Positions 31,441-55,337 of a stretch of 64,000 nt of DNA are shown here, piece by piece (the first letter of the stretch is position 1; every line of letters begins with the position of its first letter). The notes under the pieces were generated by a model, which was not told where the DNA came from, searched no databases, and was given only the letters and a program-made list of their open reading frames with translations. The translations under genes were made by a program, and so were the position numbers. Location: the IMG/VR virus record IMGVR_UViG_3300000062_000468, one strand, 5' to 3'. The stretch comes from a virus.

Positions 31441-32208
31441 ATGTGTCAATTTAAGTCAGGAGTAGTATTTAAAAACAGAGTGGTTTTAGCATCAAGAGAA
31501 AATGAGAGTCATTCAGCATTGCTAGAAAGTTTGGGGGTTGAAGATACTCGTGAAAATGCGTTGACAAAATTCGTTAGAGTGGAGTTAATTCCAAAAGACG
31601 ATAATAAAACAACAGATGTATCAGAGTGGAAATATATTGTAGACCAAGATGATACACCGCAATGGTATGACGAAGATACTGAAAGATATGAGCAAGAGTT
31701 TAGAGATGCGGTTAAAGAATGGTGGGAAGGTAAATTTGAAGAAATTTGCGGACACCCATGGACAGTGATGAAAGAAGATGAGCTGGGTACATATTATGTA
31801 CTTGATGGCATTACTGAAAGCGGTGAGTTTGGAGAGACAAACAATTACGAAATATCTGATACTCGTAAAAGGCTTAATGAAAGTAAACTAGTAAAAGATT
31901 TAATAGAGAAATTTGGCGACAGGTTAGTTCCAATTACGTTAGATTTAACCTCATTAGACGGACTGACCGATTATGGTGTTGTGGAAGGAGATTTAATTGC
32001 ACCGTTGACATTTGATTTATACAGAGATAATAGAAGATATGGTGGTATACCCAAACTTGATAAGGGATACTTTCTAGCAACCCCGGACTCAACACCTTCT
32101 GGATACGGTTCTCGCTATGTTCGGGGCGTCGACTCCGATGGTGGCGTGGACTACGACGGCTGTGGCTACTCCAGGGGCGTGCGTCCGTTTTTTATCTTAA
32201 AATCTTAA
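31441..32208 (+). CDS. Remote DGR target protein with C-terminal CLec-like (DUF6273-like) variable domain
   Basis: C-terminal ...DLTSLDGLTDYG...FLATPDSTPSG...GVRPFFILK is paralogous to 53010-53633 and contains VR2. Confidence 0.85.
   Translation: MCQFKSGVVFKNRVVLASRENESHSALLESLGVEDTRENALTKFVRVELIPKDDNKTTDVSEWKYIVDQDDTPQWYDEDTERYEQEFRDAVKEWWEGKFEEICGHPWTVMKEDELGTYYVLDGITESGEFGETNNYEISDTRKRLNESKLVKDLIEKFGDRLVPITLDLTSLDGLTDYGVVEGDLIAPLTFDLYRDNRRYGGIPKLDKGYFLATPDSTPSGYGSRYVRGVDSDGGVDYDGCGYSRGVRPFFILKS
32110..32192 (+). repeat. DGR variable repeat VR2
   Basis: Aligns without gaps to the TR at 54098-54180, with 16 mismatches at TR adenines and 1 T>G before the 3' divergence point. Confidence 0.9.
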
Positions 32209-32312
32209 ATCTTCGTATCTTCGACGAAGTAGAGGATAGCCGATAACGTTGGTGTGGGTGCGACAGCACCCGCTTCGACAACTTAAAAGCGACTGAAAGG
32301 AGCGTATGGTGT

Positions 32313-32537
32313 GTGTTTACAGAGATAGGCAGAGCGATATTAGCGAGAAAATTAATAGAAGATTTGATTATCGAAAAAGGATTTGGAGAATTAACGAAGG
32401 AAGATGCAAATTACATAGTGGAAAATTACGGACTTAAATATAAAGAGTTGATTGATGCTTATGAGTATTTCACATCTCACGAGGATCAAACAGAATTCAG
32501 AGAACAATATGTGGGAAATTTTGGAGGTGTAAAATGA
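32313..32537 (+). CDS. Hypothetical protein
   Basis: Uses the AAGGAG inside the post-VR conserved block as its RBS. Confidence 0.6.
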   Translation: MFTEIGRAILARKLIEDLIIEKGFGELTKEDANYIVENYGLKYKELIDAYEYFTSHEDQTEFREQYVGNFGGVK

Positions 32538-32794
32538 ATGAATCGTGGGTAGACCTTGATGAAGGTCAAAAAGAATATTTACAATTGAAAGAAATTGTTG
32601 AAACAAAGAAGTGTTCATTGCAAGAATTACACAAAGAACTTTATGGATATAACGAAGGGAGTTGTTGGTTTGATGTAGCTTACAAGTCAATTGTTGCTAC
32701 TATTAAACAAGTAAGTGGAAAATTTGTTCTGATGGATAAGTATAATGTGTATTCAGAAGACGGCGGTAGAAAATTGAGAGGTAAAAAGGCATAG
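32534..32794 (+). CDS. Hypothetical protein
   Basis: GGAGGT RBS; ATGA overlap with the upstream gene. Confidence 0.7.
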   Translation: MNESWVDLDEGQKEYLQLKEIVETKKCSLQELHKELYGYNEGSCWFDVAYKSIVATIKQVSGKFVLMDKYNVYSEDGGRKLRGKKA

Positions 32795-32880
32795 ATAACA
32801 AGTGGGGAATTTACCGTTGAATGTGAGTTCTATGAACATTTTAGATACGAATTAAATAATAAAAATAAAGGAGAATGTAA

Positions 32881-33153
32881 ATGAATAGAGAAAAATATGA
32901 ACATAGTGGAAAACAAATGAAAATCAAGAATTTTGTATCAAATGGACTCGCTGGAAAAATTATTGAGGTCGAAGATTATTGGGAAAATGTAAGTGGTAAA
33001 TCATGGATGTTATCAGATGGGAATATAGCGGCGATGAATTATGGATTCAGAACTGGCACACAAGGAGGTGTACCAATAAATGACGAAGTGGTTTATGGAA
33101 AAGTGGACGGATTGGGATATTTGCTTCATGTATCAGAATTGGAAGAAAAATAA
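32881..33153 (+). CDS. Hypothetical protein
   Basis: AAGGAG RBS. Confidence 0.7.
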   Translation: MNREKYEHSGKQMKIKNFVSNGLAGKIIEVEDYWENVSGKSWMLSDGNIAAMNYGFRTGTQGGVPINDEVVYGKVDGLGYLLHVSELEEK

Positions 33154-33156
33154 AAT

Positions 33157-33405
33157 ATGGACAATTATGGTAAACGAAGGCTGACAATTTGTATTGACGG
33201 AGAGTCGGCTGAAGGCTTATTTGCGGTTGGAATAGACGATTTGAAAAATTACTTTTTACCAGAAAATTTCGGAGTAGCTACTGGCGACGTCGAATCAATG
33301 ATTTTTACTCGATGTAAATTAGATGAAAACGGAAACGAATTACCACTTACAGTTTTTGGTGGTAAAAAATGGGAATATGATAGAGCGAAAAAACCAAATA
33401 AATGA
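33157..33405 (+). CDS. Hypothetical protein
   Basis: Co-oriented 82-aa ORF. Confidence 0.6.
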   Translation: MDNYGKRRLTICIDGESAEGLFAVGIDDLKNYFLPENFGVATGDVESMIFTRCKLDENGNELPLTVFGGKKWEYDRAKKPNK

Positions 33406-33436
33406 TTACTTTTACGGTAAATGGAAAGGAGTAGAT

Positions 33437-33712
33437 ATGAGTAAATCAAGTTTTACAACTATTGAAATATTAAATATTATGAATGGCGATATTCAACAGC
33501 CATTACACTATACAAAAAACGAACAAAACCAAGCGATTGTAGAAGCTGAGGAAGCGTTGGAGAAACAAACACCAATGATAGTAACCGAATACGAGGAAGA
33601 TAGAATTTTTTGTCCATCATGTAAGAGTGAACTATTATACGACACATACTTTGACGAGTTTCCTATTTATTGTGAAATATGTGGACAGCGACTTGTTGAA
33701 GAATCAAAGTAA
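33437..33712 (+). CDS. Zinc-ribbon protein
   Basis: ALEKQTP...CPSC...CEICGQRL; AAGGAG RBS before MSKSS. Confidence 0.7.
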   Translation: MSKSSFTTIEILNIMNGDIQQPLHYTKNEQNQAIVEAEEALEKQTPMIVTEYEEDRIFCPSCKSELLYDTYFDEFPIYCEICGQRLVEESK

Positions 33713-33773
33713 AAGAGCGTTTTTATGGACGAAAACCCTATAAATGACTGTTTTTACAGACAAGGAGAAGACG

Positions 33774-34223
33774 ATGAGAGAAATAATAGGAGATATTACA
33801 GAAATTACAAATGGAATCATAATGCACCAAGTAAATTGTCAAAATGTGATGGGGTCTGGTGTAGCAAGGGCATTATATGAAAAATATCCGCAAGTAAAGT
33901 CAGATTATCATAAATTTTGTGAAGGACAAAAGCCTAAGAAATTATTAGGATGTGTTCAGACTGTTTTCATTGATAGGAATTTGATAGTTGTTAATTCATT
34001 TACACAGTTGAATTTTGGAAAGGGTAATATTACAGGAGTTAAGTATACTGACGAAAAGTTGTTGATTAACAGTATTAAGGAGCTTGATAGCTTTGCAAAA
34101 GCAAGAAGCCAAACTGCGTATGTTCCTAAGTATATTGGTTGCTGTCAAGCTGGTGGCGACTGGGCGGCAATTGAATCGGCATTAAAAGAGACAGATATTG
34201 TTGTGGTTGGTTTACCTCAATAA
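33774..34223 (+). CDS. Macrodomain (Poa1p/DarG-like ADP-ribose hydrolase)
   Basis: GDI...HQVNCQNVMGSGVA...P.IGC..AGGDW. Confidence 0.9.
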   Translation: MREIIGDITEITNGIIMHQVNCQNVMGSGVARALYEKYPQVKSDYHKFCEGQKPKKLLGCVQTVFIDRNLIVVNSFTQLNFGKGNITGVKYTDEKLLINSIKELDSFAKARSQTAYVPKYIGCCQAGGDWAAIESALKETDIVVVGLPQ

Positions 34224-34254
34224 TAAAAAAATAAGAATAAAAGGAGAAAGAAGG

Positions 34255-35100
34255 ATGAATAGTATTAAAGGATATAAAGTATTTGAATCCGATTGGACTT
34301 GTAGAGATTTTCAGTATGAAGTAGGTAAAACTTATGAAATGGATGAAAAACCAATGTGTTGTGACAGGGGTTTTCATTTTTGCCCTGAATTAAAGGATTG
34401 TTTTAATTATTACAGTTTTGACCCTGAAAATAAGATTGCTGAAATTATCGCCGAAGGCGAGGTTGATGGAAAACGCAATGGCGATAAGGGTTGTACTAAC
34501 AAGATAACGATAGTTAGAGAATTGACATGGGAAGAAGTGTTGCGAATGGTAAACATTGGAAAAGGAAATGCAGGACTTTGCAACAGTGGCAATTGGAACA
34601 GTGGCAATTGCAATAGCGGCAATTGGAACAGTGGCAATTGCAATAGCGGTAATTGCAATAGTGGCAATTGGAACAGTGGTAATCGGAACAGCGGTGATTG
34701 GAACAGCGGCAATTGGAACAGTGGTGATTGGAACAAGACTTGCTTTTCCAACGGATGCTTTAACACCGAAGAACCAACAATCTTCTTATTCAATAAACCT
34801 TCTGATTGGACTTATCACAAGTGGCTTAATTCAGAAGCACGGCGGTTATTGAACTGTATCCCCAAGGATGTTGTTGAATGGATTTGGTCAAGAAATATGA
34901 CCGAAGAAGAAAAAACCGTACATCTTGAACATGAAACAACAGAAGGATATTTGAAAGTGCTTGATGAATCAGAAAGTGTGCAAGTTTGGTGGATTAGTTT
35001 ACCAGAACGTGATAAAAACACAATTCTAAGTATTCCAAATTTTGATGCTGCGATTTTTAAGCAGATTACGGAAATCGATGTTGATCAATTAGGAGAGTGA
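34255..35100 (+). CDS. Phage protein with GNWNS pentapeptide repeats
   Basis: N-terminal KGYKVF..CRDFQYEVGK..CDRGFHFC domain followed by 11 pentapeptide repeats. Confidence 0.85.
   Translation: MNSIKGYKVFESDWTCRDFQYEVGKTYEMDEKPMCCDRGFHFCPELKDCFNYYSFDPENKIAEIIAEGEVDGKRNGDKGCTNKITIVRELTWEEVLRMVNIGKGNAGLCNSGNWNSGNCNSGNWNSGNCNSGNCNSGNWNSGNRNSGDWNSGNWNSGDWNKTCFSNGCFNTEEPTIFLFNKPSDWTYHKWLNSEARRLLNCIPKDVVEWIWSRNMTEEEKTVHLEHETTEGYLKVLDESESVQVWWISLPERDKNTILSIPNFDAAIFKQITEIDVDQLGE
34576..34737 (+). repeat. 15-bp tandem repeat (AAYAGYGGYRATYGS)
   Basis: About 11 units encoding G-N/D-W/C/R-N-S. Confidence 0.9.
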
Positions 35101-35149
35101 CAACTGAAGAGCAGTTTGGTTGGTAGAAGAAAGGAGATGATGAGCTGTA

Positions 35150-36256
35150 TATAAAGCATATAAATATAGAATATATCCAAATAAGTTTCAAATAGAATTA
35201 ATACAAAAGACTTTTGGATGCTGTAGGTTTGTTTATAATCAAATGTTAGAGTACAAGCAAAAGAAATATAAAGAAGGTGGAATGACTTTGACTGATTACG
35301 AATGTAAAAACTATATGGTTCGCACGTTAAAGAAAGAGTACGAATGGTTAAAAGAGCCTGATAAATGGGCTTTAGATAATTCGGTATTTAATATGTGCAA
35401 GGCTTATAAGAATTTCTTTAAGGAAAAGAATAAAGGGTTTCCAAAATTCAAAAGTAAACATAGAAGTAAAAAATCTTATATGACAACATGTGTACCAACG
35501 GGAAATACTTATAATATTGTAGTGGATTTTGAAGAGCATAAGATTAAGCTTCCAAAATTATGTTTAGTGAAGTATAAGGGTAGCTTGTGTTTTAAAGGAG
35601 TGATCAAATCAGCTACAATATCACAGCGTCCATCTGGAAAGTATTATGTGTCAGTTCTTGTTGATGAAAATACCGATTTAACCAAACCAGAAATCACAAA
35701 CAAAATTGGAATAGATTTAGGTTTGTCTAATTTTGCAATATTATCTACGGGCGAGAAGGTTAACAACCCAAAACATCTATACAAATCGGAGCAACAACTG
35801 AAATAATTACAACGAGCTTATTGTAGAAAGAAGAAAGATTCTAAGAACAAAGAGAAGGCGAGGATATTACTTGCTAAGAAACACGAAAAGATAGCTAATC
35901 AAAGAAAGGATTTTTCAAACAAACTTTCAAAACGGCTAATAGACGAAAACCAAGTTATAGTCATAGAGAAGTTGAGAACACAGAATATGATGAGCAATCA
36001 CAAATTAGCAAAATCAATAAGTGATGTTGGGTGGGGAGAATTCACTAGACAACTTAAATACAAGGCTGAATGGTACGGCAGAGAAGTTATAGAAGCCGAC
36101 ACATTTTATCCATCGAGTCAGATCTGTTCAGAATGTGGACATAGAGATGGAAAGAAAAAATTACATATTAGAGAGTGGACTTGTAGTAAATGCGGTGTGG
36201 TTCACGACAGAGATATAAATGCTGCTAAGAATTTACTAGCGTTAGCAGGGGAATAG
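35150..36256 (+). pseudogene. tnpB: IS200/IS605-family TnpB with one internal TAA (35804-35806) and no intact start
   Basis: KAYKYRIYP HTH, RuvC GIDLGL / IEKL / DRDINAA, and zinc finger CSECG..CSKCG. The frame continues across the stop. Confidence 0.9.
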
Positions 36257-36437
36257 GAAACTAAAAACAATAGGGTGTGATATACGCTTTGGTAAATAGG
36301 AATAGCTAATAGCAGTATTCCGTTCCCAGAAGGGAGTTTATAGAAATTTTATAAAACCCAATATAATGAGAATTTGCTAGTAAATAAAAGTTAATAGCCA
36401 CATATGACTGATGTGACTGGTTGAAAGGAAGGTAAAA

Positions 36438-36926
36438 ATGAAAGACAGTGTATATTTTGAAGTATTGAAGGATAGCGACTTGTATAGAGATTATTTTGAA
36501 TGGATGTCAGACAACACCACAGTTAGTAATGCGGTTGATATTGTGAGAAAGGAATTTGGTGTAGAAACAAGTTCTTTCTATGCAGTTAGAGATTATTTGC
36601 TGATTAATCCTACTCCCAAGGACAGAAAAAAATTTGCGTCATACTTAATGAAAACAAAAGACGGACGATTCAAAAAGGCATCAGACATGAGCAAGCGTTG
36701 GGTGGAATTATTAAAAGATGTAAAATATGTTAGAAAACCGCAATTGTATTACTATCTAAGAATTGTTGGGAGATGGACGGAAAGATTATTTCATCACCAA
36801 AATAAACTGTATGGACAGATAGGGGTAGAGGTGGATGGAGAGATTGGCACTATACCTGAAAGCTTTGTAGAAATGAAAGCCAGTGAATTTTATAAAATTG
36901 TGGAGACATTAGAATTGGGAAAGTGA
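36438..36926 (+). CDS. Hypothetical protein
   Basis: AAGGAAGG RBS, 162 aa. Confidence 0.75.
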   Translation: MKDSVYFEVLKDSDLYRDYFEWMSDNTTVSNAVDIVRKEFGVETSSFYAVRDYLLINPTPKDRKKFASYLMKTKDGRFKKASDMSKRWVELLKDVKYVRKPQLYYYLRIVGRWTERLFHHQNKLYGQIGVEVDGEIGTIPESFVEMKASEFYKIVETLELGK

Positions 36927-36933
36927 GATAAAG

Positions 36934-37197
36934 ATGATATTTAAAAGAAAATATAAAACTGGTAAAAAAGAAGTTAAAATATCGAAAATCAAACTCAAAG
37001 ATGGTTTTGTAGATACAGTACCAGGAGTACCAAGGTTTATAGAGAAGTATCGAATATTCAAGCAGTGGGGCGGTAAATCGCTAATGGGTTTTAATCCAAT
37101 TGTGGTATCAGAGGATTTAACACTACAAGATGGATATGTTACGTATTTGATTTTGAAAATGTTTGATTATAAGAAAGTGGATGTGACTGTAGAATAG
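36934..37197 (+). CDS. Hypothetical protein with a ParB-like PIVV..DGY motif
   Basis: PIVVSEDLTLQDGYVTY. Confidence 0.55.
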   Translation: MIFKRKYKTGKKEVKISKIKLKDGFVDTVPGVPRFIEKYRIFKQWGGKSLMGFNPIVVSEDLTLQDGYVTYLILKMFDYKKVDVTVE

Positions 37198-39942: not shown

Positions 39943-40015
39943 GTAATAGTGTAGAGTAATGAAAATGAATCTTAGATATAGGGTTCATTTTTATTGCTCA
40001 AAATGGAGGATAAAA

Positions 40016-41365
40016 ATGGATTTTGTAACAGAACTAGCCAAGAAGATATCTGAAAAATCAGGTAGAACATTTTATGTTGGTGGATATGTGAGAGATTCGA
40101 TATTGGGAATTCCCAATAAGGATATTGATATTGAAGTACATGGTATACCAGTTGAAGATTTGAAAAATATATTATTAGAGTTTGGTGAAATAAAACTGGT
40201 GGGCGAGTCTTTCGGCGTATTTAGGGTTGGTCATTATGATGTTGATATTTCTTTACCAAGAACAGAAGCATCTATTGGTGATGGACATAGAGATTTTGAG
40301 GTAGATGTTGATCCATTTATTGGAACAAAGCTTGCATCAAAGAGAAGAGATTTCACTATCAACGCATTGATGAAGGATGTGTTGACTGGTGAAATTATAG
40401 ATGAATGGAATGGATTAAAGGATTTAGAAAATAAAGTTATCAGACATATTGACAGTTTGACGTTTATAGAAGACCCTCTGCGAGTATTGAGAGCTGCCAG
40501 ATTTGTGTCACGCTTTGATTTTAAAATAGCAACAGAAACTATTATTTTGTCTTCTGCCATGAATATCACTGAATTACCAAAGGAGAGAGTATTCGAAGAA
40601 ATATCAAAGGTGTTTTTGAAATCAAAACAACCATCAATATTCTTTGAGACGCTGATAGACATGGTTCAATTATCATCATGGTTTGAAGAAGTTGAAAACC
40701 TGATTTATGTACCACAGTCTTCAGAACATCATCCTGAAGGTAACGTTTGGAATCATACAATGATTGCGTTGAATAACGCAGCTAGTAAATTAGAAGAAGC
40801 TGAAAATCCACTAGCATTTATGTTTTCAGTATTATGTCACGATTTTGGAAAAATCGTAAGTACAGAAGAAGTAGAAGGTAAAATCAAATCTATAGGTCAC
40901 GATATAGAAGGTGTGATTATTACTGAAACATTTTTGGATAGAATTACAAATGAAAAGGCTTTAAAGAAAATAGTATTAAATCATGTTGAACTTCATATGC
41001 GACCTAATATGATGATAAAGAGGTCGAGAAAAAAGAGTTTGATGAAGCTATGGGATAGTAGCGTTTGTCCTAATGATTTGATTCTACTAGCTTATGCTGA
41101 TAAATATAATAGATATGATGATCAAGATGTTATAACGGCATTGCAACGAAGATCGCTACAAGAATATGAGGATTTAATATTACAACCGCAAGTGATGGGT
41201 GCTGATTTGGTGAAACTTGGTTTAAAACCATCACCTCAATTCTCAGAGATACTAGAGTTTACTCATAAGTTACATTTAGCCGGAGTAGATAAAGAGGACG
41301 CTATAAAACACGCAATAGGAAGTTTTAAATTAAGGAGAAAAATCAATGCAGATGAGCGAGATTAA
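40016..41365 (+). CDS. cca: Class II tRNA nucleotidyltransferase (CCA-adding) with HD domain
   Basis: VGGYVRD, DIDIE, RRDFTINA, EDPLRVLRAARF, HHPEG..WNHT and CHDFGK. Confidence 0.9.
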   Translation: MDFVTELAKKISEKSGRTFYVGGYVRDSILGIPNKDIDIEVHGIPVEDLKNILLEFGEIKLVGESFGVFRVGHYDVDISLPRTEASIGDGHRDFEVDVDPFIGTKLASKRRDFTINALMKDVLTGEIIDEWNGLKDLENKVIRHIDSLTFIEDPLRVLRAARFVSRFDFKIATETIILSSAMNITELPKERVFEEISKVFLKSKQPSIFFETLIDMVQLSSWFEEVENLIYVPQSSEHHPEGNVWNHTMIALNNAASKLEEAENPLAFMFSVLCHDFGKIVSTEEVEGKIKSIGHDIEGVIITETFLDRITNEKALKKIVLNHVELHMRPNMMIKRSRKKSLMKLWDSSVCPNDLILLAYADKYNRYDDQDVITALQRRSLQEYEDLILQPQVMGADLVKLGLKPSPQFSEILEFTHKLHLAGVDKEDAIKHAIGSFKLRRKINADERD

Positions 41366-43396: not shown

Positions 43397-43786
43397 ATTA
43401 TAAGCACAAAAAATACAAATAACAGAAACTATGAAATTAATCAGTATTCAGTAGTATGGATAGAAATACCAGAAGAGATGGCAATGCCTCACTTGCAAGC
43501 TGGAACTAGACCGTATGTGGTTATATCAAATAACAGATGTAATAAGTACAGTCCTATAGTAACAGTGATTCCTATTACAACCCAAAACAAAAAGTCATTG
43601 CCTACTCATTATACACTTAGCGAGTCAGAAATAGAATACACAGGATTAGATAGAGAATCAACAATACTTGGAGAGTCTATAACAGCAATAAATAAAGACT
43701 TAATATTAAGTAAAATAGGAGAGCTGCATGACTTAACAAAGAGGAGTGTTACTAATGTGATACGAACACAATTAGGTATGGCATAG
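43397..43786 (+). CDS. mazF: PemK/MazF-family endoribonuclease, orphan; likely ATT/ATA start
   Basis: QAGTRPYVVISNNRCNKYSPIVTVIPITT...ESITAINKDLILSKIG. The N-terminal strand YSVVWIEI lies upstream of ATG 43478. Confidence 0.85.
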   Translation: MISTKNTNNRNYEINQYSVVWIEIPEEMAMPHLQAGTRPYVVISNNRCNKYSPIVTVIPITTQNKKSLPTHYTLSESEIEYTGLDRESTILGESITAINKDLILSKIGELHDLTKRSVTNVIRTQLGMA

Positions 43787-43835
43787 CCCATATTTTTATT
43801 TCAAACATAAAAGTTCAGTTTTTTCACGAAGCCAG

Positions 43836-43864
43836 TTGACAAAAATGAAAGTTCATGTTACTAT
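43836..43864 (+). promoter_or_regulatory. sigmaA promoter for the MrpR-like gene
   Basis: TTGACA-17 nt-TACTAT with extended TG. Confidence 0.65.
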
Positions 43865-43905
43865 TTGTCTGTTGTACTAAGACAATAGTGAGTGGGGATT
43901 AAGAA

Positions 43906-44844
43906 ATGTATAATGAAGCACAAAAGAACGATTATTTAGGATATGCACATAATAAGAAAAGGGCAAAAGAACTATTTGAAAAATTAGCCAAAAAAGAAGA
44001 AGAGTTGAACAAAGATATATGTATGATGAACTTGGACGAAATAATGGAGTGTTTATTATCAATGTCCACCGTATATAATGCAATCATTGCAAAAGTGGAC
44101 ATAGGTAGTTATCTGGAATGGTGTGTAATCAAAGATATAATTGTGGGGAATTGTATATTATCATTGACGAATATGACAATAAAATCGACTTATTTTCGTG
44201 AAAAAGAAGAATTTTATATATCTAAAGAATATTATGATGATTTGATTTTAAAACTTACACAATCACCATATGGGGTCTACTGGACAAGCTTTGTAATGGC
44301 TATGTATGAAGGTATTAGTGGTGATAATTTTGACAACCTTATACATCTGAGGCTGCGAGATATAGACAGAAAAACTAATACGATAAAGCTATGTAACGGA
44401 GCAACTGAAAGCGTGTCTACTTCGTTAACCACGATGTTAGTACAAACATCGCAAATTTCGGAAATCACGGTTAATTTTAGAAAAAAATTGGTGTCATCAT
44501 TATATGCAGATTCAGTTTGGAATTTTTCAATGACAGATATAACAGAAAAGAAGGCTAAAGATACTTTTGGTAGATGGTTGCGCATAATGCGAGACGTGTT
44601 TGAAGAGCCGAGGATAACAAAGTATAGTATAGAGCGAAGTGGTTATTTTAATATTAAGTTAGATCAACTTTTCGATGGTGGTATGACAAAAGAAGAACTG
44701 GTAGATATGTGTTATTCTGAGAAGGCAAAAATTAATAGCAGATATTCAGAGTTTTTTGAAGATGGGGATGACAATGCTGGGGTAAAAGTAGACAGTATGC
44801 GAAAATTTATTTACAGCTACCGGTCTTTTCTTAATCAAATATAG
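43906..44844 (+). CDS. MrpR (YopR)-like repressor, degenerate tyrosine-recombinase fold
   Basis: MYNEAQK start, EEELNKDI and YEGISG..L.HLRLRDID, as in SPbeta MrpR. Lacks the catalytic R and HxxR set. Confidence 0.65.
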   Translation: MYNEAQKNDYLGYAHNKKRAKELFEKLAKKEEELNKDICMMNLDEIMECLLSMSTVYNAIIAKVDIGSYLEWCVIKDIIVGNCILSLTNMTIKSTYFREKEEFYISKEYYDDLILKLTQSPYGVYWTSFVMAMYEGISGDNFDNLIHLRLRDIDRKTNTIKLCNGATESVSTSLTTMLVQTSQISEITVNFRKKLVSSLYADSVWNFSMTDITEKKAKDTFGRWLRIMRDVFEEPRITKYSIERSGYFNIKLDQLFDGGMTKEELVDMCYSEKAKINSRYSEFFEDGDDNAGVKVDSMRKFIYSYRSFLNQI

Positions 44845-49656: not shown

Positions 49657-50052
49657 ATGAGTATTGAAATAGGAAAATTATTTGAGGTAGCATCGAAAAA
49701 GAAATTCAGATTTGTGTTTAAAGGGATTATTGCAACAGAAGATTTATGGGATTTGTCTGTAAAAGATTTGAATGTGATTTTCAAGGATTTAAACAAACAA
49801 GTTAAGCAGACTGTGGAAGAAAGCTTATTAGATATTCAAACAGAAAAAGATACAGACCTTGACAATATGCTTCGTATTGTAAAATACATTGCTAGTATCA
49901 AGTTGGCAGAAATTGAAAATGCAAAACAGGCTAAGTCTCGAAAAGAGAAGAAAGAAAAAATCATGTCAATTATTGCATCTAAACAAGATGAAGCACTTGA
50001 AAACAAATCTGTAGATGAATTGATGGCTATGTTAGATGAGGATGAAGGGTAG
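49657..50052 (+). CDS. Conserved coiled-coil phage protein
   Basis: LFEVASKKKFRF..KG..ATEDLWDL; GGAGG RBS. Confidence 0.8.
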   Translation: MSIEIGKLFEVASKKKFRFVFKGIIATEDLWDLSVKDLNVIFKDLNKQVKQTVEESLLDIQTEKDTDLDNMLRIVKYIASIKLAEIENAKQAKSRKEKKEKIMSIIASKQDEALENKSVDELMAMLDEDEG

Positions 50053-50090
50053 GTAACTACCCCCCTAAAGCAAAGTGTGAAAGTGAGGAT

Positions 50091-51167
50091 ATGATTTTGA
50101 GTAGAAAATTAGCAAGTATTAGGACAATCACAGATGTGCTACCAATTGAAGGTAGAGACAGAATTGAGTTAGCAGCTATTGACGGGTGGCAAGTAATTGT
50201 AAAGAAAGATGAATTTCAAATTGGTGACAAGTGTATCTATTGTGAGATTGATTCAGTATTACCAGAGAAAGATGAGTTTGAATTTCTCAGAAGTAAAAAG
50301 TTCAGAATTCGCACAATGAAAATGGCGGGAGTTATTAGTCAAGGGATTTGTTTTCCAATGAGTATGTTACCAGAAGGCAAATATGAAGTTAATGATGATG
50401 TTACGAAGTTGATGGGCGTAACTCAATACACCGGAACAATGGACATTGAAACAGATGTAAATTTACATAAAGCTAAAAAGAGATACCCTAAATTTTTGAT
50501 GAGAATGGGTTGGTTTAGAAAATTAGTATTACCTAAAAAGCAAGCAAAAGGGTTTCCTAGTTTTGTATCAAAGACTGATGAAACAAGGATTCAAAACGCA
50601 CCGTTTTATTTAAAGAGCGAAAACGAATGGGTGGCTACCGAGAAGTTAGATGGACAGAGTGGTACATTTTTTGTTAAGAAGGTAAAAGGCTTATTTAAGA
50701 GCAAATACGATTTTGGTGTGTGTTCTCGAAACCTACGAAAATTTAAAGAAGATAACTCGTCGTTTTGGAGTGTGGCTAAAAGGTATGGCATTAAAGATAT
50801 CCTTCTTAATAGTGTAGGTTCTGATGATTTCCTCGCTATTCAAGGTGAATGTCTTGCGTCAAATGTACAAGGTAATAAGTACAAAGTTACAGAACCAGAC
50901 CTTTATGTATTCAATGTTATTACTCCGTCTGGGCGAATGGGGACGGAAGAAGCTAAAGCGTGGTGCGATGAGAATGGTTTGAAGTTTGTACCAATTCTTG
51001 ATACACGGTATGTTACCCCCAATAGCGTTTCTGAGATACTAGAGTACGCTCATGCAAAGAGTAAACTGTACGATACATTACGTGAAGGCGTTGTATTCAG
51101 AAGTAAAGACGGTAAGCAGAGCTTTAAAGCTGTCGATCCGTTATTCCTACTGAAGCATGATGAGTAA
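50091..51167 (+). CDS. ATP-dependent RNA ligase (Rnl2/DRB0094-like)
   Basis: Motif I TEKLDGQS, IQGE, LYVFNV, motif IV REGVV and motif V FKAV. Confidence 0.9.
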   Translation: MILSRKLASIRTITDVLPIEGRDRIELAAIDGWQVIVKKDEFQIGDKCIYCEIDSVLPEKDEFEFLRSKKFRIRTMKMAGVISQGICFPMSMLPEGKYEVNDDVTKLMGVTQYTGTMDIETDVNLHKAKKRYPKFLMRMGWFRKLVLPKKQAKGFPSFVSKTDETRIQNAPFYLKSENEWVATEKLDGQSGTFFVKKVKGLFKSKYDFGVCSRNLRKFKEDNSSFWSVAKRYGIKDILLNSVGSDDFLAIQGECLASNVQGNKYKVTEPDLYVFNVITPSGRMGTEEAKAWCDENGLKFVPILDTRYVTPNSVSEILEYAHAKSKLYDTLREGVVFRSKDGKQSFKAVDPLFLLKHDE

Positions 51168-51213
51168 GAGTGCCAACAGAAATCGTATTTTATTGGGTTA
51201 GAAAGGAGTTTAA

Positions 51214-51726
51214 TTGACAAAACAGCAAAATAAATTAGTAACAGACCATCACTATCTCATCGCTCAATGTATGAAGATATGTAAGATACCATTGAAGTAT
51301 AGAGACGACTATTATGGTGATGCTGCAATCGGATTGTGTGAGGCTGTGGTAAAGTTTGATGAGAGTAATGGAACTATTTTGAACTTCACTCAATACGCAA
51401 GAACTATAGTTATTAATAAAATAAAAATGGTATACAGAAAAGAGTTAAGTAAAAAAAGAGACATAATTAAAGTTGGACTTAGTGGGGCGCAGAATAAAAA
51501 AGATGAAAGCTTTGAGAATAATTTCAATTTTCGGTTGATATTTTTAGACTTTTCGCAACTACTATATATGAAGGAACAAATAATTGTAAAAATGATTTTA
51601 GAAGGATATACATATGCTGAGATTGGAAACGAACTAGGAATGTCCGGTCAGGCAATACATAAGAAAATTAAAAAGATACGAAGAAGATTAACCAGCACTA
51701 CTGATTTGGCGAGATGTGGTGTGTAG
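51214..51726 (+). CDS. Sigma70-family sigma factor-like protein
   Basis: Region 2 (DDYYGDAAIGLCEAVVKFD..FTQYA) and region 4 HTH (GYTYAEIGNELGMSGQAI). Confidence 0.8.
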   Translation: MTKQQNKLVTDHHYLIAQCMKICKIPLKYRDDYYGDAAIGLCEAVVKFDESNGTILNFTQYARTIVINKIKMVYRKELSKKRDIIKVGLSGAQNKKDESFENNFNFRLIFLDFSQLLYMKEQIIVKMILEGYTYAEIGNELGMSGQAIHKKIKKIRRRLTSTTDLARCGV

Positions 51727-51820
51727 ACAAACGAATAGACTAATAAATTTCCAAAAAGAGAAAAACAATTGAATTAAAGAAAACCAAATACCTGTTTTAT
51801 CTGGCATTAAAGGAGGGAAA

Positions 51821-52561
51821 ATTATAGAAAATTTACAAATTTTTAATGAACAAAGAGTGTTAGAAAAAGATTTTAAAATTTATGGAACAATTGAAGAGCC
51901 ATTATTTTTGGCAAAAGATGTGGCAAATTGGATTGAACACAACAAGCCTTCTGAACTGACTCGACTAGTTGATGATGACGAAAAGCTGGAGGCGATAGTA
52001 TCGCACTCAGGTCAGAATCGTAAAATGTGGTTTCTTACTGAAGATGGATTGTACGAAGTCTTAATGCAATCAAGAAAACCAATTGCCAAATTATTTAAAA
52101 CGGAAGTAAAGAAAATTTTAAAGAGTGTTAGAAAGAATGGTGGGTATATCGCAAATCAAGAAAATCTTACAGATATTGAAATTCTCGCCAAAGCAGTTTT
52201 AGTTGCACAAAATGTAATTGCTGAAAAGGATAAGCAAATTGAAGAAATGACACCTAAAGCAGCATTTGCAGATCAAGTATCCGATTCTAAAGATGCAATT
52301 GATATTGGCAGTTTTGCAAAAGTAGTTAAAGACGAACATATTAACATAGGAAGAAACAAGTTATTTGATTGGTTGCGAAACAAGGGATTTCTGATGAATA
52401 ATAACGTTCCATATCAACGATACATAGATAATAATTGGTTTAAGGTTATAGAACTCACAAAGGATACTTGTTATGGAGTGAAATGTTTTACTAAAACACT
52501 CATTACGGGTAGAGGACAAATTAATATTGTAGAGAAGTTGAGAGCAGAAATCGGAAACTAG
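51821..52561 (+). CDS. Bro-N + ANT/KilA-C antirepressor; probable ATT/ATA start
   Basis: PLFLAKDVA, FLTEDGLYEVLMQSRKPIAK and IGRNKLFDWLR. AGGAGG RBS at 51811. Confidence 0.85.
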   Translation: MIENLQIFNEQRVLEKDFKIYGTIEEPLFLAKDVANWIEHNKPSELTRLVDDDEKLEAIVSHSGQNRKMWFLTEDGLYEVLMQSRKPIAKLFKTEVKKILKSVRKNGGYIANQENLTDIEILAKAVLVAQNVIAEKDKQIEEMTPKAAFADQVSDSKDAIDIGSFAKVVKDEHINIGRNKLFDWLRNKGFLMNNNVPYQRYIDNNWFKVIELTKDTCYGVKCFTKTLITGRGQINIVEKLRAEIGN

Positions 52562-52572
52562 AAGGGGTAAGA

Positions 52573-52986
52573 ATGGAAGTAGAAACTAAGACAATGTATG
52601 TAACCGAAGACGGTTCGCTGTTCGAAGATGAGGAAGATTACTTAGACTATGAGGATTATATTAGTAAGCAGAAAGAGTTGAGAGAACGAGAAGTCAGGTT
52701 TATGGATATTGTGAAATTTACTAATGATTATCAGTACTATAAAGTATATTCAAAAGAAGATTTTGAGCATGTCTATGCATTATATACAGAAGTGTATGCA
52801 GACTATTATCCAGCAATACAACAAGAGTATCCCGAATCGTATCCAGCTGTGATAGCGTGCATTACATATGAAGATGAAAATTTTGATAGTATGCCATGGT
52901 GTGATGTCGAAGTAGAAATACTAGGCAATCTGAAAAAGACCGTTTTGGAAATAGAAACAGAGTTAGAAAATCCTATAAATGATTAG
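52573..52986 (+). CDS. Acidic hypothetical protein
   Basis: 137 aa, AAGGGG RBS. Confidence 0.7.
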   Translation: MEVETKTMYVTEDGSLFEDEEDYLDYEDYISKQKELREREVRFMDIVKFTNDYQYYKVYSKEDFEHVYALYTEVYADYYPAIQQEYPESYPAVIACITYEDENFDSMPWCDVEVEILGNLKKTVLEIETELENPIND

Positions 52987-53009
52987 TTTGATGGTGATAA
53001 GAAAGGATA

Positions 53010-53633
53010 ATGAAAATTATGACAAACATTGAGATAGTAAATAATGCAACAAATATTAAAGTGACGACAGAAGATACAAGAGATGGGAAACGTGTAATTA
53101 TTGAAACTGCACCAGACCAAGTGAAATTAGAAGATATTAAATTGGGTGGAGCATTTCAAGTTGGAAGATTTGTGTTTGTAAAAACTAAAGACGGATACGT
53201 TTTAAGAAATCTTTTGAATGATGGAAAAAAATATAAATTTGGCGATAATAACAATTATGCAGAGAGTGATGTTCGTGAAATGTTGAATGGAGAATTTTAT
53301 AGAGAGTTGGCTGGCATTGTTGGAATTGAAAATATTATTGAACATGAAGTTGATTTAATGTCGTTAGACGGATTAAAAGATTACGGAAAATGTAGAGATA
53401 AGGTAAGTTTACTAACACTAAGAATGTATCAAGATAACAGAGAATATATTCCTCTAGTAGATGATTGGTATTGGTTAGCTACTGGAAATTCGACACCTTC
53501 AGGTTATCCTACTCACTGTGTTCTGTGCGTCGGCTCCAATGGTGACGTGGACTGCGACGACTGTAGCTACTCCGGGGGCGTGCGTCCGTTTTGTATCTTT
53601 AAACCTTCAATCTTCGTATCTCCAGTAAACTAG
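53010..53633 (+). CDS. DGR cassette target protein, C-terminal CLec-like (DUF6273-like) domain
   Basis: NNYAESDVR..DLMSLDG..WYWLAT..GGVRPFCIFK; contains VR1. Confidence 0.9.
   Translation: MKIMTNIEIVNNATNIKVTTEDTRDGKRVIIETAPDQVKLEDIKLGGAFQVGRFVFVKTKDGYVLRNLLNDGKKYKFGDNNNYAESDVREMLNGEFYRELAGIVGIENIIEHEVDLMSLDGLKDYGKCRDKVSLLTLRMYQDNREYIPLVDDWYWLATGNSTPSGYPTHCVLCVGSNGDVDCDDCSYSGGVRPFCIFKPSIFVSPVN
53511..53593 (+). repeat. DGR variable repeat VR1
   Basis: Gapless match to the TR with 14 mismatches, all at TR adenines, plus one C>T at the 3' divergence point. Confidence 0.95.
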
Positions 53634-53708
53634 AGACAAACTAACAAAGTAAATGGGTGCGTAAGCACCCTGACAACCCCAAAAGCGACTGAAAGGAGCT
53701 GACACATA

Positions 53709-54074
53709 TTGTCTGGAATAATGGAAGTAACTATTAAATCTGTTGAGTTAATGGAATACACAATGACAATTACATCAAACAGAAAACGTTATCCAGCTAA
53801 ACATTTAATGTTAGTGAAACGTATTCAGGCAAAAAGTTTCGATATTTATGAATACCTTTTAGAAGCGAATAGGTTACAGTTATCTACATCAAAAGTAGAA
53901 AGAAATGAATTGCAAACTAAAGCAGTTGTAAGTTGTGACAAATTATCTTGTTATGTAGAGCTATCAATGAAGCTTAAATTGGTTGGAAGCAATACTGTAG
54001 AAAAATGGCAAAAGAAGATTAATGATGTTAAATATATGACGCTTGCGTGGAGAAGAACAGATAAAGATAGATAA
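53709..54074 (+). CDS. avd: DGR accessory variability determinant (four-helix bundle)
   Basis: 121-aa basic helical protein between target and TR; RYPAK..LVKRIQ..ANR pattern. Confidence 0.85.
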   Translation: MSGIMEVTIKSVELMEYTMTITSNRKRYPAKHLMLVKRIQAKSFDIYEYLLEANRLQLSTSKVERNELQTKAVVSCDKLSCYVELSMKLKLVGSNTVEKWQKKINDVKYMTLAWRRTDKDR

Positions 54075-54097
54075 TATATTAGGTTGTTTGCTGTATG

Positions 54098-54180
54098 ACT
54101 CACTATGTTCAGTACGTCAACTCCAATGGTAACGTGAACTACGACAACTGTAACTACTCCAAAAGCGTGCGTCCGTTCTG
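54098..54180 (+). repeat. DGR template repeat (TR)
   Basis: AAC-rich 83-nt copy with 24 adenines, between avd and RT. Confidence 0.95.
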
Positions 54181-54299
54181 AGCTGGAAGACGAAACAAAG
54201 TAGGAGAAACACCGAAATTAGAGTCCCAGCAGCAAAAGAGCAAACAACCTTTCTTGATGATGAATAAGCGTCAGGATAAATACAAAGGATTTAATTATT

Positions 54300-55337
54300 A
54301 TGACAGAAGATAATCAAAGTGATTTTGAAAAAGTAACAGATTTTTCTAATTTATATAAAGCATATAAGAAGTCTAAACTAGGGAAAGGTTACAGTAAAAG
54401 CAGTATGAAGTTTCAAGTGTCTGCGCTTGATGGGATATATCAGATAAAGCGAAGACTAGAAACGAAACAATACATAGTGTCAAAGTATAACGAGTTCAAG
54501 ATATATGAACCAAAAGAGCGAATTATAAAAGCGTGTTCGTTTCAAGACAAGATAATTCAACATAGTCTTTGTGACAATGTGCTAATGCCTTTATTTAAAG
54601 ATGAATTTATCTTAGATAATTACGCCGGACAAATCGGCAAGGGAACATTATTTGGACTTGACCGCTTATCAGAACAGATGAGTTTAGCGTACAAAGAGTT
54701 TGGAATGAACTGTTGGATTTTAAAAGCTGATGTACGGAAGTTCTTTTACAATATTAATCATGACATCTTAAAGAAAATCGTGAAGAAACATGTGAAAGAT
54801 GAAGACGTATATTGGTTGTGTGAAAAGTTTATTGATAGTACCGATGGATTAGGATTGCCATTAGGAAATCAGATTAGTCAATTATTTGCTTTATTATATC
54901 TTTCGGGAATGGATCATTTCATCACAGAAGATTTGGGTATTAAATATTATGGGCGATACATGGATGATTTCTGCTTGATACACGAGGACAAGAATCATTT
55001 AAAACACTGTTTAGCTGAAATAAACAATGTGGTTAGTAAACTCGAATTAGAGCTAAATGAGAAAACTCAAATTATGCCGTTTAAAAATGGAATTAAGTTT
55101 TGTGGTTTTCATACATATGTTACCAGTGATGGTAAAGTGATTAGAAAATTGAAGAATGAAAACAAGCGTGCTGCTAAGAAAAAATATAAAAGAATGGCAC
55201 GGTTGATTAAACAAGGTAAGCTGAGTAGAGAAAAGTTTGATGAGTCATATGGTGCGTGGAAGAACCATATTTCACATGGGAATTGTGTGAAGCTCGGTGT
55301 TGAGATGGATAGGTATATTGCAGAGTTATTTGAGTGA
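54300..55337 (+). CDS. DGR reverse transcriptase
   Basis: FSNLYKAY, KERII..FQDKIIQH, KADVRKFF, GLPLGNQISQ (DGR LGxxxSQ signature), YMDD and FCG. Confidence 0.95.
   Translation: MTEDNQSDFEKVTDFSNLYKAYKKSKLGKGYSKSSMKFQVSALDGIYQIKRRLETKQYIVSKYNEFKIYEPKERIIKACSFQDKIIQHSLCDNVLMPLFKDEFILDNYAGQIGKGTLFGLDRLSEQMSLAYKEFGMNCWILKADVRKFFYNINHDILKKIVKKHVKDEDVYWLCEKFIDSTDGLGLPLGNQISQLFALLYLSGMDHFITEDLGIKYYGRYMDDFCLIHEDKNHLKHCLAEINNVVSKLELELNEKTQIMPFKNGIKFCGFHTYVTSDGKVIRKLKNENKRAAKKKYKRMARLIKQGKLSREKFDESYGAWKNHISHGNCVKLGVEMDRYIAELFE

What the first reader, a model, noticed from the sequence alone, without database searches (positions are those of the whole stretch)
31441..55337. Complete DGR with two targets, one about 22 kb from the cassette, both apparently non-virion proteins
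The TR (54098-54180) aligns without gaps to VR1 (53511-53593; 14 mismatches, all at TR adenines) and to VR2 (32110-32192; 16 at adenines plus one T>G). The cassette order is target-avd-TR-RT. The two targets share a C-terminal CLec/DUF6273-like domain but have unrelated N-termini. Both lie in the early/accessory arm, far from any structural gene, so they are unlikely to be tail fibres. Inference: the DGR hypervaries intracellular ligand-binding proteins, for example anti-defence or host-takeover factors.
Basis: partly seen in the sequence, partly recalled or inferred. Interest (0 to 1): 0.8.

Follow-up and report, generated by a model that had tools for sequence, protein, structure and literature searches.

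The report
Active two-target DGR, early-gene targets
A large gut phage carries a working diversity-generating retroelement that rewrites the binding sites of two small lectin-fold proteins, one 22 kb from the cassette. Both genes sit among early, regulatory and counter-defence genes rather than tail genes, so they may act inside the cell, but this is not proven.

Summary
An 80-nt TR (54098-54177, 24 adenines) matches VR1 (53511-53590; 14 mismatches, all at TR adenines). It also matches VR2 (32110-32189; 16 at adenines plus one T>G). The cassette order is target-avd-TR-RT, and the RT has the DGR motif LGNQISQ.

VR2 is not a fossil. A 96-99% identical relative has 15 differences in the 80-bp VR2 (13 at TR adenines) against 6 in about 2.3 kb of flank. 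Three further VR1 alleles behave the same way, and the TR is identical in all sources. Both VRs are followed by the same IMH-like block, hairpin and 19-nt block, which continue past target 2's stop codon.

Both targets fold as C-type-lectin/DUF6273 domains. Target 2 also has a conserved 98-residue N-terminal module of unknown fold.

The "non-virion" reading is partly supported, by context only. In the window, in 12 individually read loci and phages, and in 47 dereplicated viral loci, neighbours are Avd, repressors, sigma factors, antirepressors, replication/recombination, methylase, RNA-repair and NAD-salvage genes. No structural family ranks among the 25 commonest. Neither target has a signal peptide or membrane segment. 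Virion incorporation was not tested.

Remote DUF6273 targets (Toutatisvirus) and a defence-island target (Quimbyvirus) are already published. I class this as a new variant of a known kind.

The parts
31441..32208 (+). Target 2 gene (255 aa): N-terminal module (residues 1-98) plus C-type-lectin/DUF6273-like domain (residues ~100-255)
   Evidence: ORF; phrog_9958 E 1e-25 over residues 95-255; AF2 pLDDT 92.5; VIA Z 14.6 to the DUF6273 domain of 9qa6
31441..31734 (+). N-module of target 2 (MC.FKSG...VDQD..P.W), unknown fold and function, always N-terminal
   Evidence: 882 representative clusters; conservation; no Pfam/PHROG/NCBIfam/PDB match
32110..32189 (+). VR2, in frame, at the C-terminus of target 2
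   Evidence: 16 A-site plus 1 T>G mismatches to TR; 15 differences to the relative L005, 13 at A sites
32190..32224 (+). IMH-like block downstream of VR2. It spans the stop codon (32206-32208) and is near-identical to the block after VR1
   Evidence: Alignment A4; ATCTTCGTATCT at 32209
32256..32271 (+). Hairpin GGGTGC-GACA-GCACCC downstream of VR2
32285..32303 (+). 19-nt block AAAAGCGACTGAAAGGAGC (includes an RBS), identical to the block before avd
53010..53633 (+). Target 1 gene (207 aa from ATG 53010; gene callers use ATG 53019, 204 aa): single C-lec/DUF6273 domain with a short N-terminal beta-hairpin
   Evidence: Pfam DUF6273 25.7 bits (cut-off 23.5) and phrog_9958 E 5e-34; AF2 pLDDT 91.9
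53511..53590 (+). VR1
   Evidence: 14 mismatches, all at TR adenines; 11-13 A-site differences in each of three other strains
53591..53625 (+). IMH-like block downstream of VR1 (coding here)
53655..53670 (+). Hairpin GGGTGC-GTAA-GCACCC downstream of VR1
53681..53699 (+). 19-nt block with the RBS of avd
53709..54074 (+). avd (accessory variability determinant), 121 aa from TTG (117 aa from ATG 53721)
   Evidence: phrog_3206 'Avd protein of DGR' E 1e-16; NCBIfam DivGenRetAVD E 1e-6, below its cut-off
54098..54177 (+). Template repeat (TR), 24 adenines, six AAY codons in the VR frame; followed by a divergent IMH* (CTGAGCTGG...)
   Evidence: identical in L006, L007, L024 and L025
54300..55337 (+). 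DGR reverse transcriptase (345 aa) with LGNQISQ and YMDD motifs
   Evidence: RVT_1 E 1e-17 and phrog_1423 E 5e-112; motifs

Best explanation
This is a canonical, currently active DGR. The steps I treat as shown by sequence signature are: the TR is transcribed, the RT (with Avd) copies it into cDNA with random misincorporation opposite adenines, and the cDNA replaces two homologous variable repeats. VR1 is in the adjacent target and VR2 acts in trans in a second target 22 kb upstream.

Each VR is marked for homing by the same 3' signal: a GC-rich core, a ~34-nt IMH-like block, a GGGTGC-N4-GCACCC hairpin and a 19-nt block. The role of these elements is inferred by analogy to Bordetella phage BPP-1. 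The VR codes the surface beta-hairpin region of a C-type-lectin/DUF6273 domain, and about 6e13 protein variants are possible.

My inference, at roughly 55-60% likelihood, is that both targets are not tail or capsid components. I read them as soluble, acidic proteins made from the phage's early/regulatory/accessory regions, acting as programmable binders of variable host or competitor molecules. Counter-defence is the most likely purpose. In target 2 the variable lectin domain is the specificity module, attached to a constant 98-residue N-terminal module. In about 60% of relatives that module carries a beta-solenoid-like repeat array instead. The window's phage appears to have brought a second, normally cassette-adjacent target type under one TR by giving it the resident cassette's 3' recognition signal.
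For: DGR identity and activity:
- A-only mismatches at both VRs.
- The A->N pattern is unique in the window.
- RT, Avd and the RT motifs are present.
- The TR is identical in five sources. The in-frame VR alleles vary at 23 sites, 21 of them TR adenines.
- VR2 against L005: 15 differences in 80 bp versus 6 in about 2.3 kb of flank.
- VR1 against L006/L007: 11 differences, all at A sites, versus 9 in 4.9 kb.

Cis elements:
- They are shared by both VRs, they are non-coding after VR2, and they are absent from more distant cassettes.

Fold:
- Z 14.6 to the DUF6273 domain of T. ramosa IgA peptidase, 7.6 to TvpA and 6.1 to Mtd.

Non-structural reading:
- Window neighbours are ParB-like/DUF3102, Bro-N/ANT, RNA ligase, CCA enzyme, MazF, MrpR and an NAD-salvage cluster.
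- Five related true DGR cassettes sit in equivalent settings.
- Homologues lie in the early operon of FP_Brigit, Dulem virus 35, L015 and L016.
- The neighbour surveys are dominated by Avd, regulators, sigma factor, antirepressors, SSB, RecT, DnaB, methylase and an anti-restriction protein.
- There is no signal peptide or TM segment, and the pI values are 4.6 and 4.9.
- The N-module is fused to C-lec in 17 of 150 representatives and to 9-residue repeats in most others.
Against: - No expression, localisation or virion data exist for any member, so all the evidence for 'non-virion' is gene neighbourhood.
- Large phages scatter structural genes, and only 64 kb of a 387-kb contig was visible.
- The DUF6273 domain is used extracellularly elsewhere: IgA peptidase, tentaclin/Hoc-like targets (6 of 140 neighbours), and tail-adjacent targets in Faecalibacterium phages (PMC13432834; bioRxiv 10.1101/2024.10.15.618418).
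- The neighbour surveys list only the 25 commonest of 121-220 families, so rare structural neighbours cannot be excluded.
- Published authors read close relatives (nd4/nd12 tgt2) as receptor-binding proteins (PMC10743442).
- The N-module has no recognisable function.
- The role of the hairpin and 19-nt block in homing is by analogy only. The 19-nt block may be conserved simply as an RBS.
Confidence: 0.6

Rival explanations
1. Both targets are virion-associated receptor-binding or adhesion proteins, such as accessory fibre tips or decoration proteins, that happen to be encoded outside the structural module. The DGR would then tune host range or mucus/particle adhesion as in BPP-1 Mtd.
For: - The C-lec fold is shared with Mtd (Z 6.1), TvpA (Z 7.6) and a Bacteroides fimbrial protein (Z 7.7).
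- BFVD matches include proteins labelled receptor-binding or tail proteins.
- DUF6273 targets lie next to tail genes in some Faecalibacterium phages (PMC13432834; 10.1101/2024.10.15.618418).
- Hoc-like/tentaclin co-targets occur beside this family.
- The literature default is a receptor-binding protein (PMC10743442, PMC8144416).
- A constant N-module with a swappable C-terminal binder is also the design of tail fibres.
Against: - No structural family ranks among the 25 commonest neighbours in 47 dereplicated loci.
- In small modular temperate phages the homologues sit between Cro and RecT/Sak/replication genes, a slot that by general knowledge of modular temperate phages does not normally hold virion genes.
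- The models are compact monomers without fibre-like shafts.
- No fold match extended beyond the lectin domain (inconclusive for the N-module).
Confidence: 0.25
2. The targets are lysogen-benefiting sensors for superinfection exclusion or prophage-encoded defence. The hypervariable lectin domain would recognise proteins of incoming competitor phages and the N-module would act as effector or adaptor.
For: - The genes lie close to immunity and regulatory genes: CI/Cro, antirepressors, MrpR, MazF.
- DGRs have been linked to conflict and signalling systems in bacteria (cited in PMC8008677).
- The N-module has nearly invariant polar residues (C2, S6, H24, D35, E48, D68, Q69) that could form an active site.
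Against: - In the small phages the genes lie on the lytic (Cro) strand, not the repressor strand.
- The PADLOC defence-system library was not searched, so this reading was not tested against known defence families.
- The 98-residue N-module matches no known effector.
- Target 1 has no effector domain at all.
Confidence: 0.12
3. VR2 is a fossil: a duplicated or recombined copy of the target 3' end that the DGR no longer rewrites.
For: It carries one non-adenine difference (T>G at 32125) and lies 22 kb from the cassette.
Against: - Against the 96%-identical relative, 15 of 21 differences in 2.4 kb fall in the 80-bp VR2, and 13 of those are at TR adenines.
- The same T>G recurs independently in a VR1 allele (L024), so it looks like a DGR by-product and not drift.
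- The 3' cis elements are intact.
- The reading frame is intact.
Confidence: 0.03

Closest known systems
Bordetella phage BPP-1 DGR (Brt, Avd, TR, VR in mtd)
   Same: Same components and cassette logic. Mutagenesis is adenine-specific. The VR is C-terminal in a C-lec fold, with a GC-rich core, IMH and downstream hairpin. The TR is rich in AAY codons.
   Different: BPP-1 has a single target, the trimeric tail-fibre tip protein Mtd in the tail module. Here there are two small targets in non-structural regions, one 22 kb away. The hairpin lies about 65 nt after the VR rather than immediately after the IMH.
Quimbyvirus DGR (Benler et al. 2021, PMC8008677)
   Same: A phage DGR with two C-lec targets. 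One is distal and lies among methyltransferases, a nuclease and a tRNA ligase, and the authors proposed it is non-structural and involved in phage-host conflict. A-site variation was shown by comparing near-identical genomes.
   Different: Quimbyvirus infects Bacteroides, one of its targets is tail-adjacent, and its RT is frameshifted. Here neither target is near structural genes in the window, the host is probably Lachnospiraceae, and target 2 carries a distinct N-module.
Toutatisvirus (Faecalibacterium) DGR (Egorov et al. 2024, bioRxiv 10.1101/2024.10.15.618418)
   Same: Two DUF6273 targets under one TR, one of them remote (17,480 nt upstream of the TR).
   Different: In Toutatisvirus one target is a Hoc-like/tentaclin protein in a hotspot flanked by tail genes, and the authors interpret both as receptor-binding proteins.
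nd4/nd12 'target2' small DUF6273 proteins and tentaclins (Baykov et al. 2023, PMC10743442)
   Same: Target 1 matches nd4 tgt2 (31% identity, E 2e-16) and nd12 tgt2 (38%). All are single-domain C-lec proteins next to the cassette.
   Different: Those phages pair the small target with a tentaclin, and the authors hypothesise receptor binding. In nd4 the gene in fact lies between the lysis and replication genes, which fits the pattern seen here.
DUF6273 domain of Thomasclavelia ramosa IgA peptidase (PDB 9qa6; PMC12402451 appeared in the DUF6273 literature search but was not read)
   Same: It is the best structural match to both targets (VIA Z 14.6, 152 residues, 20% identity; Foldseek E 5e-5 and 2e-4).
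   Different: It is a domain of a large secreted metallopeptidase, is not DGR-diversified, and acts outside the cell.
SPbeta-like phages (YonO RNA polymerase, MrpR repressor)
   Same: The window encodes a YonO-type RNAP, an MrpR-like protein and a MazF-like toxin.
   Different: This element sits on a contig about 3 times larger than SPbeta's ~134 kb (recalled from memory).

Membership tests
Diversity-generating retroelement (DGR) | Reverse transcriptase of the DGR clade ([I/L]GxxxSQ motif, YxDD) | tested here: met
   RVT_1 E 1e-17; phrog_1423 E 5e-112; LGNQISQ at residue 188 and YMDD at 220
Diversity-generating retroelement (DGR) | TR/VR pair whose mismatches are almost all at TR adenines | tested here: met
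   VR1 14/14 and VR2 16/17 at adenines; the pattern is unique in the window, 0 expected by chance
Diversity-generating retroelement (DGR) | Accessory protein (Avd) next to the TR | tested here: met
   phrog_3206 E 1e-16; NCBIfam DivGenRetAVD E 1e-6, below its curated cut-off
Diversity-generating retroelement (DGR) | IMH at the VR 3' end that differs from the TR (IMH*), plus a downstream hairpin | tested here: met
   The GC core GCGTGCGTCCG is shared by TR and VRs. The next ~34 nt are shared by the VRs only. Both VRs have a GGGTGC-N4-GCACCC hairpin. Function was not tested
Diversity-generating retroelement (DGR) | Ongoing diversification of the VR with an invariant TR | tested here: met
   The VR alleles vary at 23 sites, 21 at TR adenines. 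The TR is identical in window, L006, L007, L024 and L025. Within-sample read heterogeneity could not be tested
C-type-lectin / DUF6273 variable protein | C-lec fold with the VR at the C-terminus | tested here: met
   Target 1: Pfam DUF6273 25.7 bits against a cut-off of 23.5. Target 2: no Pfam hit at E<0.01 but phrog_9958 E 1e-25 and VIA Z 14.6 to a DUF6273 domain
Virion receptor-binding protein of the Mtd type | Gene located in the tail/structural module | tested here: not met
   Window context; relatives; neighbour surveys
Virion receptor-binding protein of the Mtd type | N-terminal fibre-attachment or trimerisation domains homologous to Mtd | tested here: inconclusive
   Structural matches to Mtd cover only the lectin domain, residues 100-255.
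Virion receptor-binding protein of the Mtd type | Presence in purified virions; VR variants change host range | not testable with these tools
   Needs proteomics and adsorption assays
Phage anti-defence protein | Demonstrated binding or inhibition of a host defence system | not testable with these tools
   Only guilt by association: neighbouring RNA repair, NAD salvage, methylase and anti-restriction genes

The most novel reading that the evidence does not exclude
A widespread lineage of Firmicutes gut phages may encode early, cytoplasmic 'programmable binders'. These would have a constant N-terminal module, or none, joined to an interchangeable hypervariable recognition domain. That domain would be either a DGR-rewritten C-type lectin or a recombining beta-solenoid repeat array. 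The phage would use it as an adaptive, antibody-like counter-defence or takeover factor. In that case DGRs in phages would be diversifying intracellular weapons as well as host-range determinants.
Probability: 0.3. Interest if true: 0.85.

Novelty: new variant of a known kind. Interest (0 to 1): 0.52.

Why it matters
Phage DGRs are usually read as host-range devices acting on tail fibres. If this lineage really diversifies early, non-virion proteins, DGRs would also serve intracellular phage-host or phage-phage conflict. The lectin-fold targets would then be natural, evolvable binders whose ligands (defence proteins?) could be found by pull-down.

The case is practical to test. The VR alleles already differ between closely related strains. 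A cultured relative (FP_Brigit) carries a homologous early gene. The two-target arrangement shows that a target can be recruited in trans simply by acquiring the cassette's 3' recognition signal.

Tried and rejected
- Whole-genome search for further VRs: no genome is held for this window.
- A->N pattern scans of metagenome, viral and genome collections found only the TR of the JGI 8-kb contig. A third VR elsewhere on the 387-kb contig therefore remains untested.
- Public sequencing runs: none was listed for the target-2 region. Within-sample read heterogeneity could not be examined and read laying was not used.
- Megablast of 20 kb of the window against GenBank phages gave no match.
- The ORF after target 2 (32313-32537) was tested as an avd remnant and rejected.
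- Rfam scan of 53500-56200 gave no match at E<=1.
- Function of the N-module: no Pfam, PHROG, NCBIfam or PDB-sequence match. Atlas structure neighbours all had TM below 0.5 to anything named. Whole-model fold searches were filled by the lectin domain.
- The promoter/terminator scan near target 2 was no better than shuffles.
- Complex prediction was not used. No specific partner was in question, and an oligomer result would not separate the rival explanations.
- The first attempt to scan viral contigs with the broad N-module alignment failed for lack of a conserved stretch. It was repeated with 9 closer sequences.

Full report

Yes. An ungapped comparison gives a TR core at 54098-54177, 80 nt long with 24 adenines. 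VR1 at 53511-53590 differs from it at 14 positions, all TR adenines. VR2 at 32110-32189 differs at 16 adenines plus one T>G at 32125. The TR with every A replaced by N matches only these three places in the 64-kb window at up to three mismatches, with none expected in 100 shuffles.

The surrounding genes are as described.
- Target 1 is at 53010-53633. Gene callers start it at ATG 53019, which is better spaced from the RBS. It hits Pfam DUF6273 above the gathering score and phrog_9958.
- avd is at 53709-54074 (phrog_3206, 'Avd protein of DGR').
- The reverse transcriptase is at 54300-55337 (RVT_1, phrog_1423). It carries the DGR-type LGNQISQ motif and YMDD.
- Target 2 is at 31441-32208 and hits phrog_9958 over residues 95-255.

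In the VR reading frame the TR has six AAY codons. It allows about 6e13 protein variants.

**2. Are both VRs active?**

The window's contig is 387,362 bp. A close relative lies on a 292-kb ENA contig (L005, L006). Shorter relatives are L007, L024 and L025.

| Comparison | Differences in the 80-bp VR | At TR adenines | Differences in flank |
|---|---|---|---|
| VR2, window vs L005 | 15 | 13 | 6 in ~2.3 kb |
| VR1, window vs L006/L007 | 11 | 11 (one is a 1-nt deletion that frameshifts that assembly) | 9 in 4.9 kb |
| VR1, window vs L024 | 11 | 10 (one is the recurrent T>G at TR 54113) | 1 in the gene |
| VR1, window vs L025 | 13 | 13 | 0 in the gene |

Over the five in-frame VR alleles, 23 sites vary and 21 of them are TR adenines. 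The TR is letter-identical in all five sources. The single non-adenine change in the window's VR2 (T>G at TR position 54113) recurs independently in the VR1 allele of L024. That points to a by-product of mutagenic copying between two adenines and not to drift. The "fossil duplicate" reading is therefore rejected.

**3. Cis elements**

After the shared GC core (GCGTGCGTCCG), the TR diverges (CTGAGCTGG...). The two VRs continue with a near-identical ~34-nt block. In target 2 this block runs through and past the stop codon (32206-32208). About 65 nt after each VR there is a GGGTGC-N4-GCACCC hairpin with different loops (GTAA and GACA). It is followed by an identical 19-nt block that contains the RBS of the next gene.

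These elements occur only in this phage and its close relative, and not in more distant cassettes of the same family. Target 2 therefore carries the recognition signal of the resident cassette. The ORF after target 2 is not an avd remnant. An earlier first-stage note (e1-5343945) described the same block. I had verified it independently before seeing that note.

**4. The proteins**

AlphaFold models are confident: pLDDT 92.5 and pTM 0.87 for target 2, and pLDDT 91.9 and pTM 0.82 for target 1. Residues ~100-255 of target 2, and most of target 1, form a C-type-lectin fold.
- The best match is the DUF6273 domain of the Thomasclavelia ramosa IgA peptidase (VIA Z 14.6, rmsd 2.5 Å, 152 residues).
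- Next come Legionella Lcl (Z 9.5), the DGR target TvpA (Z 7.6) and Mtd (Z 6.1).

The two targets share 46% identity over this domain only. Neither has a hydrophobic segment (maximum 19-residue Kyte-Doolittle mean 0.85), and both are acidic (pI 4.6 and 4.9).

Target 2 has an extra 98-residue N-terminal module. Its consensus is MC.FKSGIILK...DSH..LLE.LGIED...FVRAEL.P...W...VDQD..P.W. The module is present in 882 representative clusters and is always at the N-terminus. It matches no Pfam, PHROG, NCBIfam or PDB family. Among 150 representatives, 17 join it to a C-lec domain. Most others join it to arrays of a 9-residue repeat (xNSxVxxMx) of beta-solenoid type, and a few to pentapeptide, DUF4116 or other domains. 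The module is therefore a constant part with interchangeable, intrinsically variable "binder" C-termini.

**5. Where these genes live**

In the window:
- Target 2 follows a ParB-like gene and a DUF3102 gene.
- The cassette follows DUF8224, RNA ligase and a Bro-N/ANT antirepressor.
- Downstream of the cassette is an NAD-salvage cluster: isochorismatase-like, PRPP synthetase, NAMPT, NadE, PnuC and NadR-like genes.
- Between the two targets lie TnpB fragments, an integrase, a CCA-adding enzyme, MazF and an MrpR-like protein.

In relatives, the target-2 type is itself the cassette-adjacent target (L008/L009, L010, L012), and so is the target-1 type (L021, L022). All five cassettes are true DGRs with 10-14 mismatches, of which 0-2 are at non-adenines. 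Their neighbours are PemK, integrase, sigma factor, GmrSD_N, Thg1, DNA methylases, RNA ligase/RtcB, SSB and NAD salvage.

In small phages with clear modules:
- The N-module protein lies between the Cro-like repressor and the replication genes in Dulem virus 35.
- It lies between Cro/Xis-like genes and Sak in L015, and beside YqaJ and DUF3854 in L016.
- A target-1-like DUF6273 protein in the cultured Faecalibacterium phage FP_Brigit lies between CI/Cro and exonuclease/RecT.
- nd4 tgt2 lies between the lysis and replication genes.

Two systematic surveys of IMG/VR loci point the same way.

| Survey | Loci (dereplicated) | Neighbour ORFs | Commonest neighbour families |
|---|---|---|---|
| C-lec family | 28 | 140 | a second phrog_9958 protein (18), Avd (16), Hoc-like (6), then SbcC, SSB, recombinases, RecT, DnaB, primase, replication initiator, methyltransferase; the first ORF scanned is an anti-restriction protein |
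| N-module family | 19 | 133 | Avd (11), sigma factor (5), repressors and regulators, Thg1, integrase, antirepressors, invertase |

No capsid, portal, terminase or tail family is among the 25 commonest in either survey. The caveat is that only the first 25 of 121-220 families are listed.

RT linkage varies by architecture.
- Of 25 N-module+C-lec loci, 20 have an RT about 1.2 kb downstream and 5 have none within 7 kb, like the window.
- None of 9 N-module+repeat loci has an RT.
- Of 46 C-lec loci with full flanks, 26 have the RT downstream and 20 have none within 7 kb.

**6. Interpretation**

The molecular mechanism is the standard DGR one. The A-specific signature, the invariant TR and the component set are shown here. 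Transcription, cDNA synthesis and homing are inferred from established DGR biology. Trans-action on VR2 over 22 kb is consistent with the shared 3' signal.

The functional reading rests on gene neighbourhood, which is consistent across many independent phages, and on the absence of export signals. I read the targets as early, soluble, non-virion binders that probably act in counter-defence or takeover. I put this at about 55-60%.

The main rival is a virion receptor-binding or adhesion protein encoded outside the structural module (about 25%). It is supported by the use of DUF6273 in extracellular and tail-adjacent proteins and by the literature default. A defence or superinfection-exclusion sensor role is a lesser rival (about 12%).

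**7. Comparison with what is known**

- Multi-target DGRs with a remote target are published: Toutatisvirus has two DUF6273 targets, one 17,480 nt from the TR (bioRxiv 10.1101/2024.10.15.618418). Faecalibacterium prophages with two VRs are also described (PMC11792537).
- A phage DGR target in a defence-related island, suggested to be non-structural, was described for Quimbyvirus (PMC8008677).
- Small single-domain DUF6273 targets were described for nd4 and nd12 and interpreted as receptor-binding proteins (PMC10743442).
- Roux et al. classed most viral targets as tail proteins and left many as unknown (PMC8144416).

Several points appear to be additional here.
- Both targets of one DGR lie outside any structural context within the 64-kb window.
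- There is family-wide evidence that this cassette lineage resides in early, regulatory or replication modules.
- The N-module architecture swaps a DGR-lectin domain for a repeat array.
- A second target type has evidently been recruited by acquiring the cassette's own 3' signal.

**8. Verdict**

Activity at both VRs is confirmed at strain level. I class the finding as a new variant of a known kind, of moderate interest.

Noticed in passing
window 8369-12270 (-): A YonO-type single-subunit RNA polymerase (Pfam RdRP hit) is split into two ORFs, 10465-12270 and 8369-9487. They match the two halves of phrog_8308 and are separated by a ~1-kb insert at 9488-10464. A first-stage note calls the insert a group I intron.
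   Followed up: partly
window 56756-62162 (+): A complete NAD+ salvage and synthesis cluster lies directly downstream of the DGR: isochorismatase-like, PRPP synthetase, NAMPT, NadE, PnuC and NadR-like NMNAT. The same DGR-plus-NAD linkage occurs in L022, and the relative L006 has an extra NUMOD3 endonuclease gene inside the cluster. Compare gut jumbo phages in PMC11662467.
   Followed up: partly
window 21611-32906 (+): 35 of the 38 plus-strand GTGGAAA motifs fall in this 11-kb block, which ends just after target 2, against only 4 on the minus strand in the whole window. A perfect palindrome GTGGAAAATTTCCAC sits at 28864-28878, immediately upstream of the ParB-like gene (28896-29846). This suggests ParB/parS-like binding sites. 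Synteny with the close relative also breaks at about 32830.
   Followed up: partly
IMG/VR loci L106-L131: In many ~30-46-kb viral contigs the N-module/repeat gene lies within about 0.4-0.8 kb of a contig end. This suggests that its 9-residue repeat array breaks assemblies, or is hypervariable in copy number.
   Followed up: no
L029-L101 (IMG/VR): 18 of 140 neighbouring ORFs of the small C-lec family are themselves phrog_9958 proteins, so tandem pairs of C-lec proteins (likely double targets) are common. In addition, 20 of 46 loci have no RT within 7 kb, so they are remote or orphan targets.
   Followed up: partly
window 43478-44844 (+): A PemK/MazF-like toxin with no recognisable antitoxin beside it lies directly upstream of an MrpR-like recombinase/repressor, which is the SPbeta-type lysogeny regulator. 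PemK genes also recur near the DGR cassettes of relatives (L008, L010, L012, L022).
   Followed up: no
window 2957-6505 (-) and 39959-41365, 50091-51167 (+): The window holds six tRNA genes (Met, Phe, Lys, Tyr, His, Glu), a CCA-adding enzyme with an HD domain and an RNA ligase. Relatives add Thg1 and RtcB. Together these look like an RNA-repair toolkit around the DGR.
   Followed up: no
window 55341-55473: A first-stage note proposes a tRNA-like element right after the RT stop codon. ARAGORN and Rfam at E<=1 report nothing there.
   Followed up: partly
L006 10559-10640 / L007: The VR1 allele of the 292-kb relative, and of the JGI contig, has a 1-nt deletion at a TR-adenine position that frameshifts the target's C-terminus (P0126). 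This is either a DGR-generated null allele or an assembly consensus of a mixed VR population.
   Followed up: no
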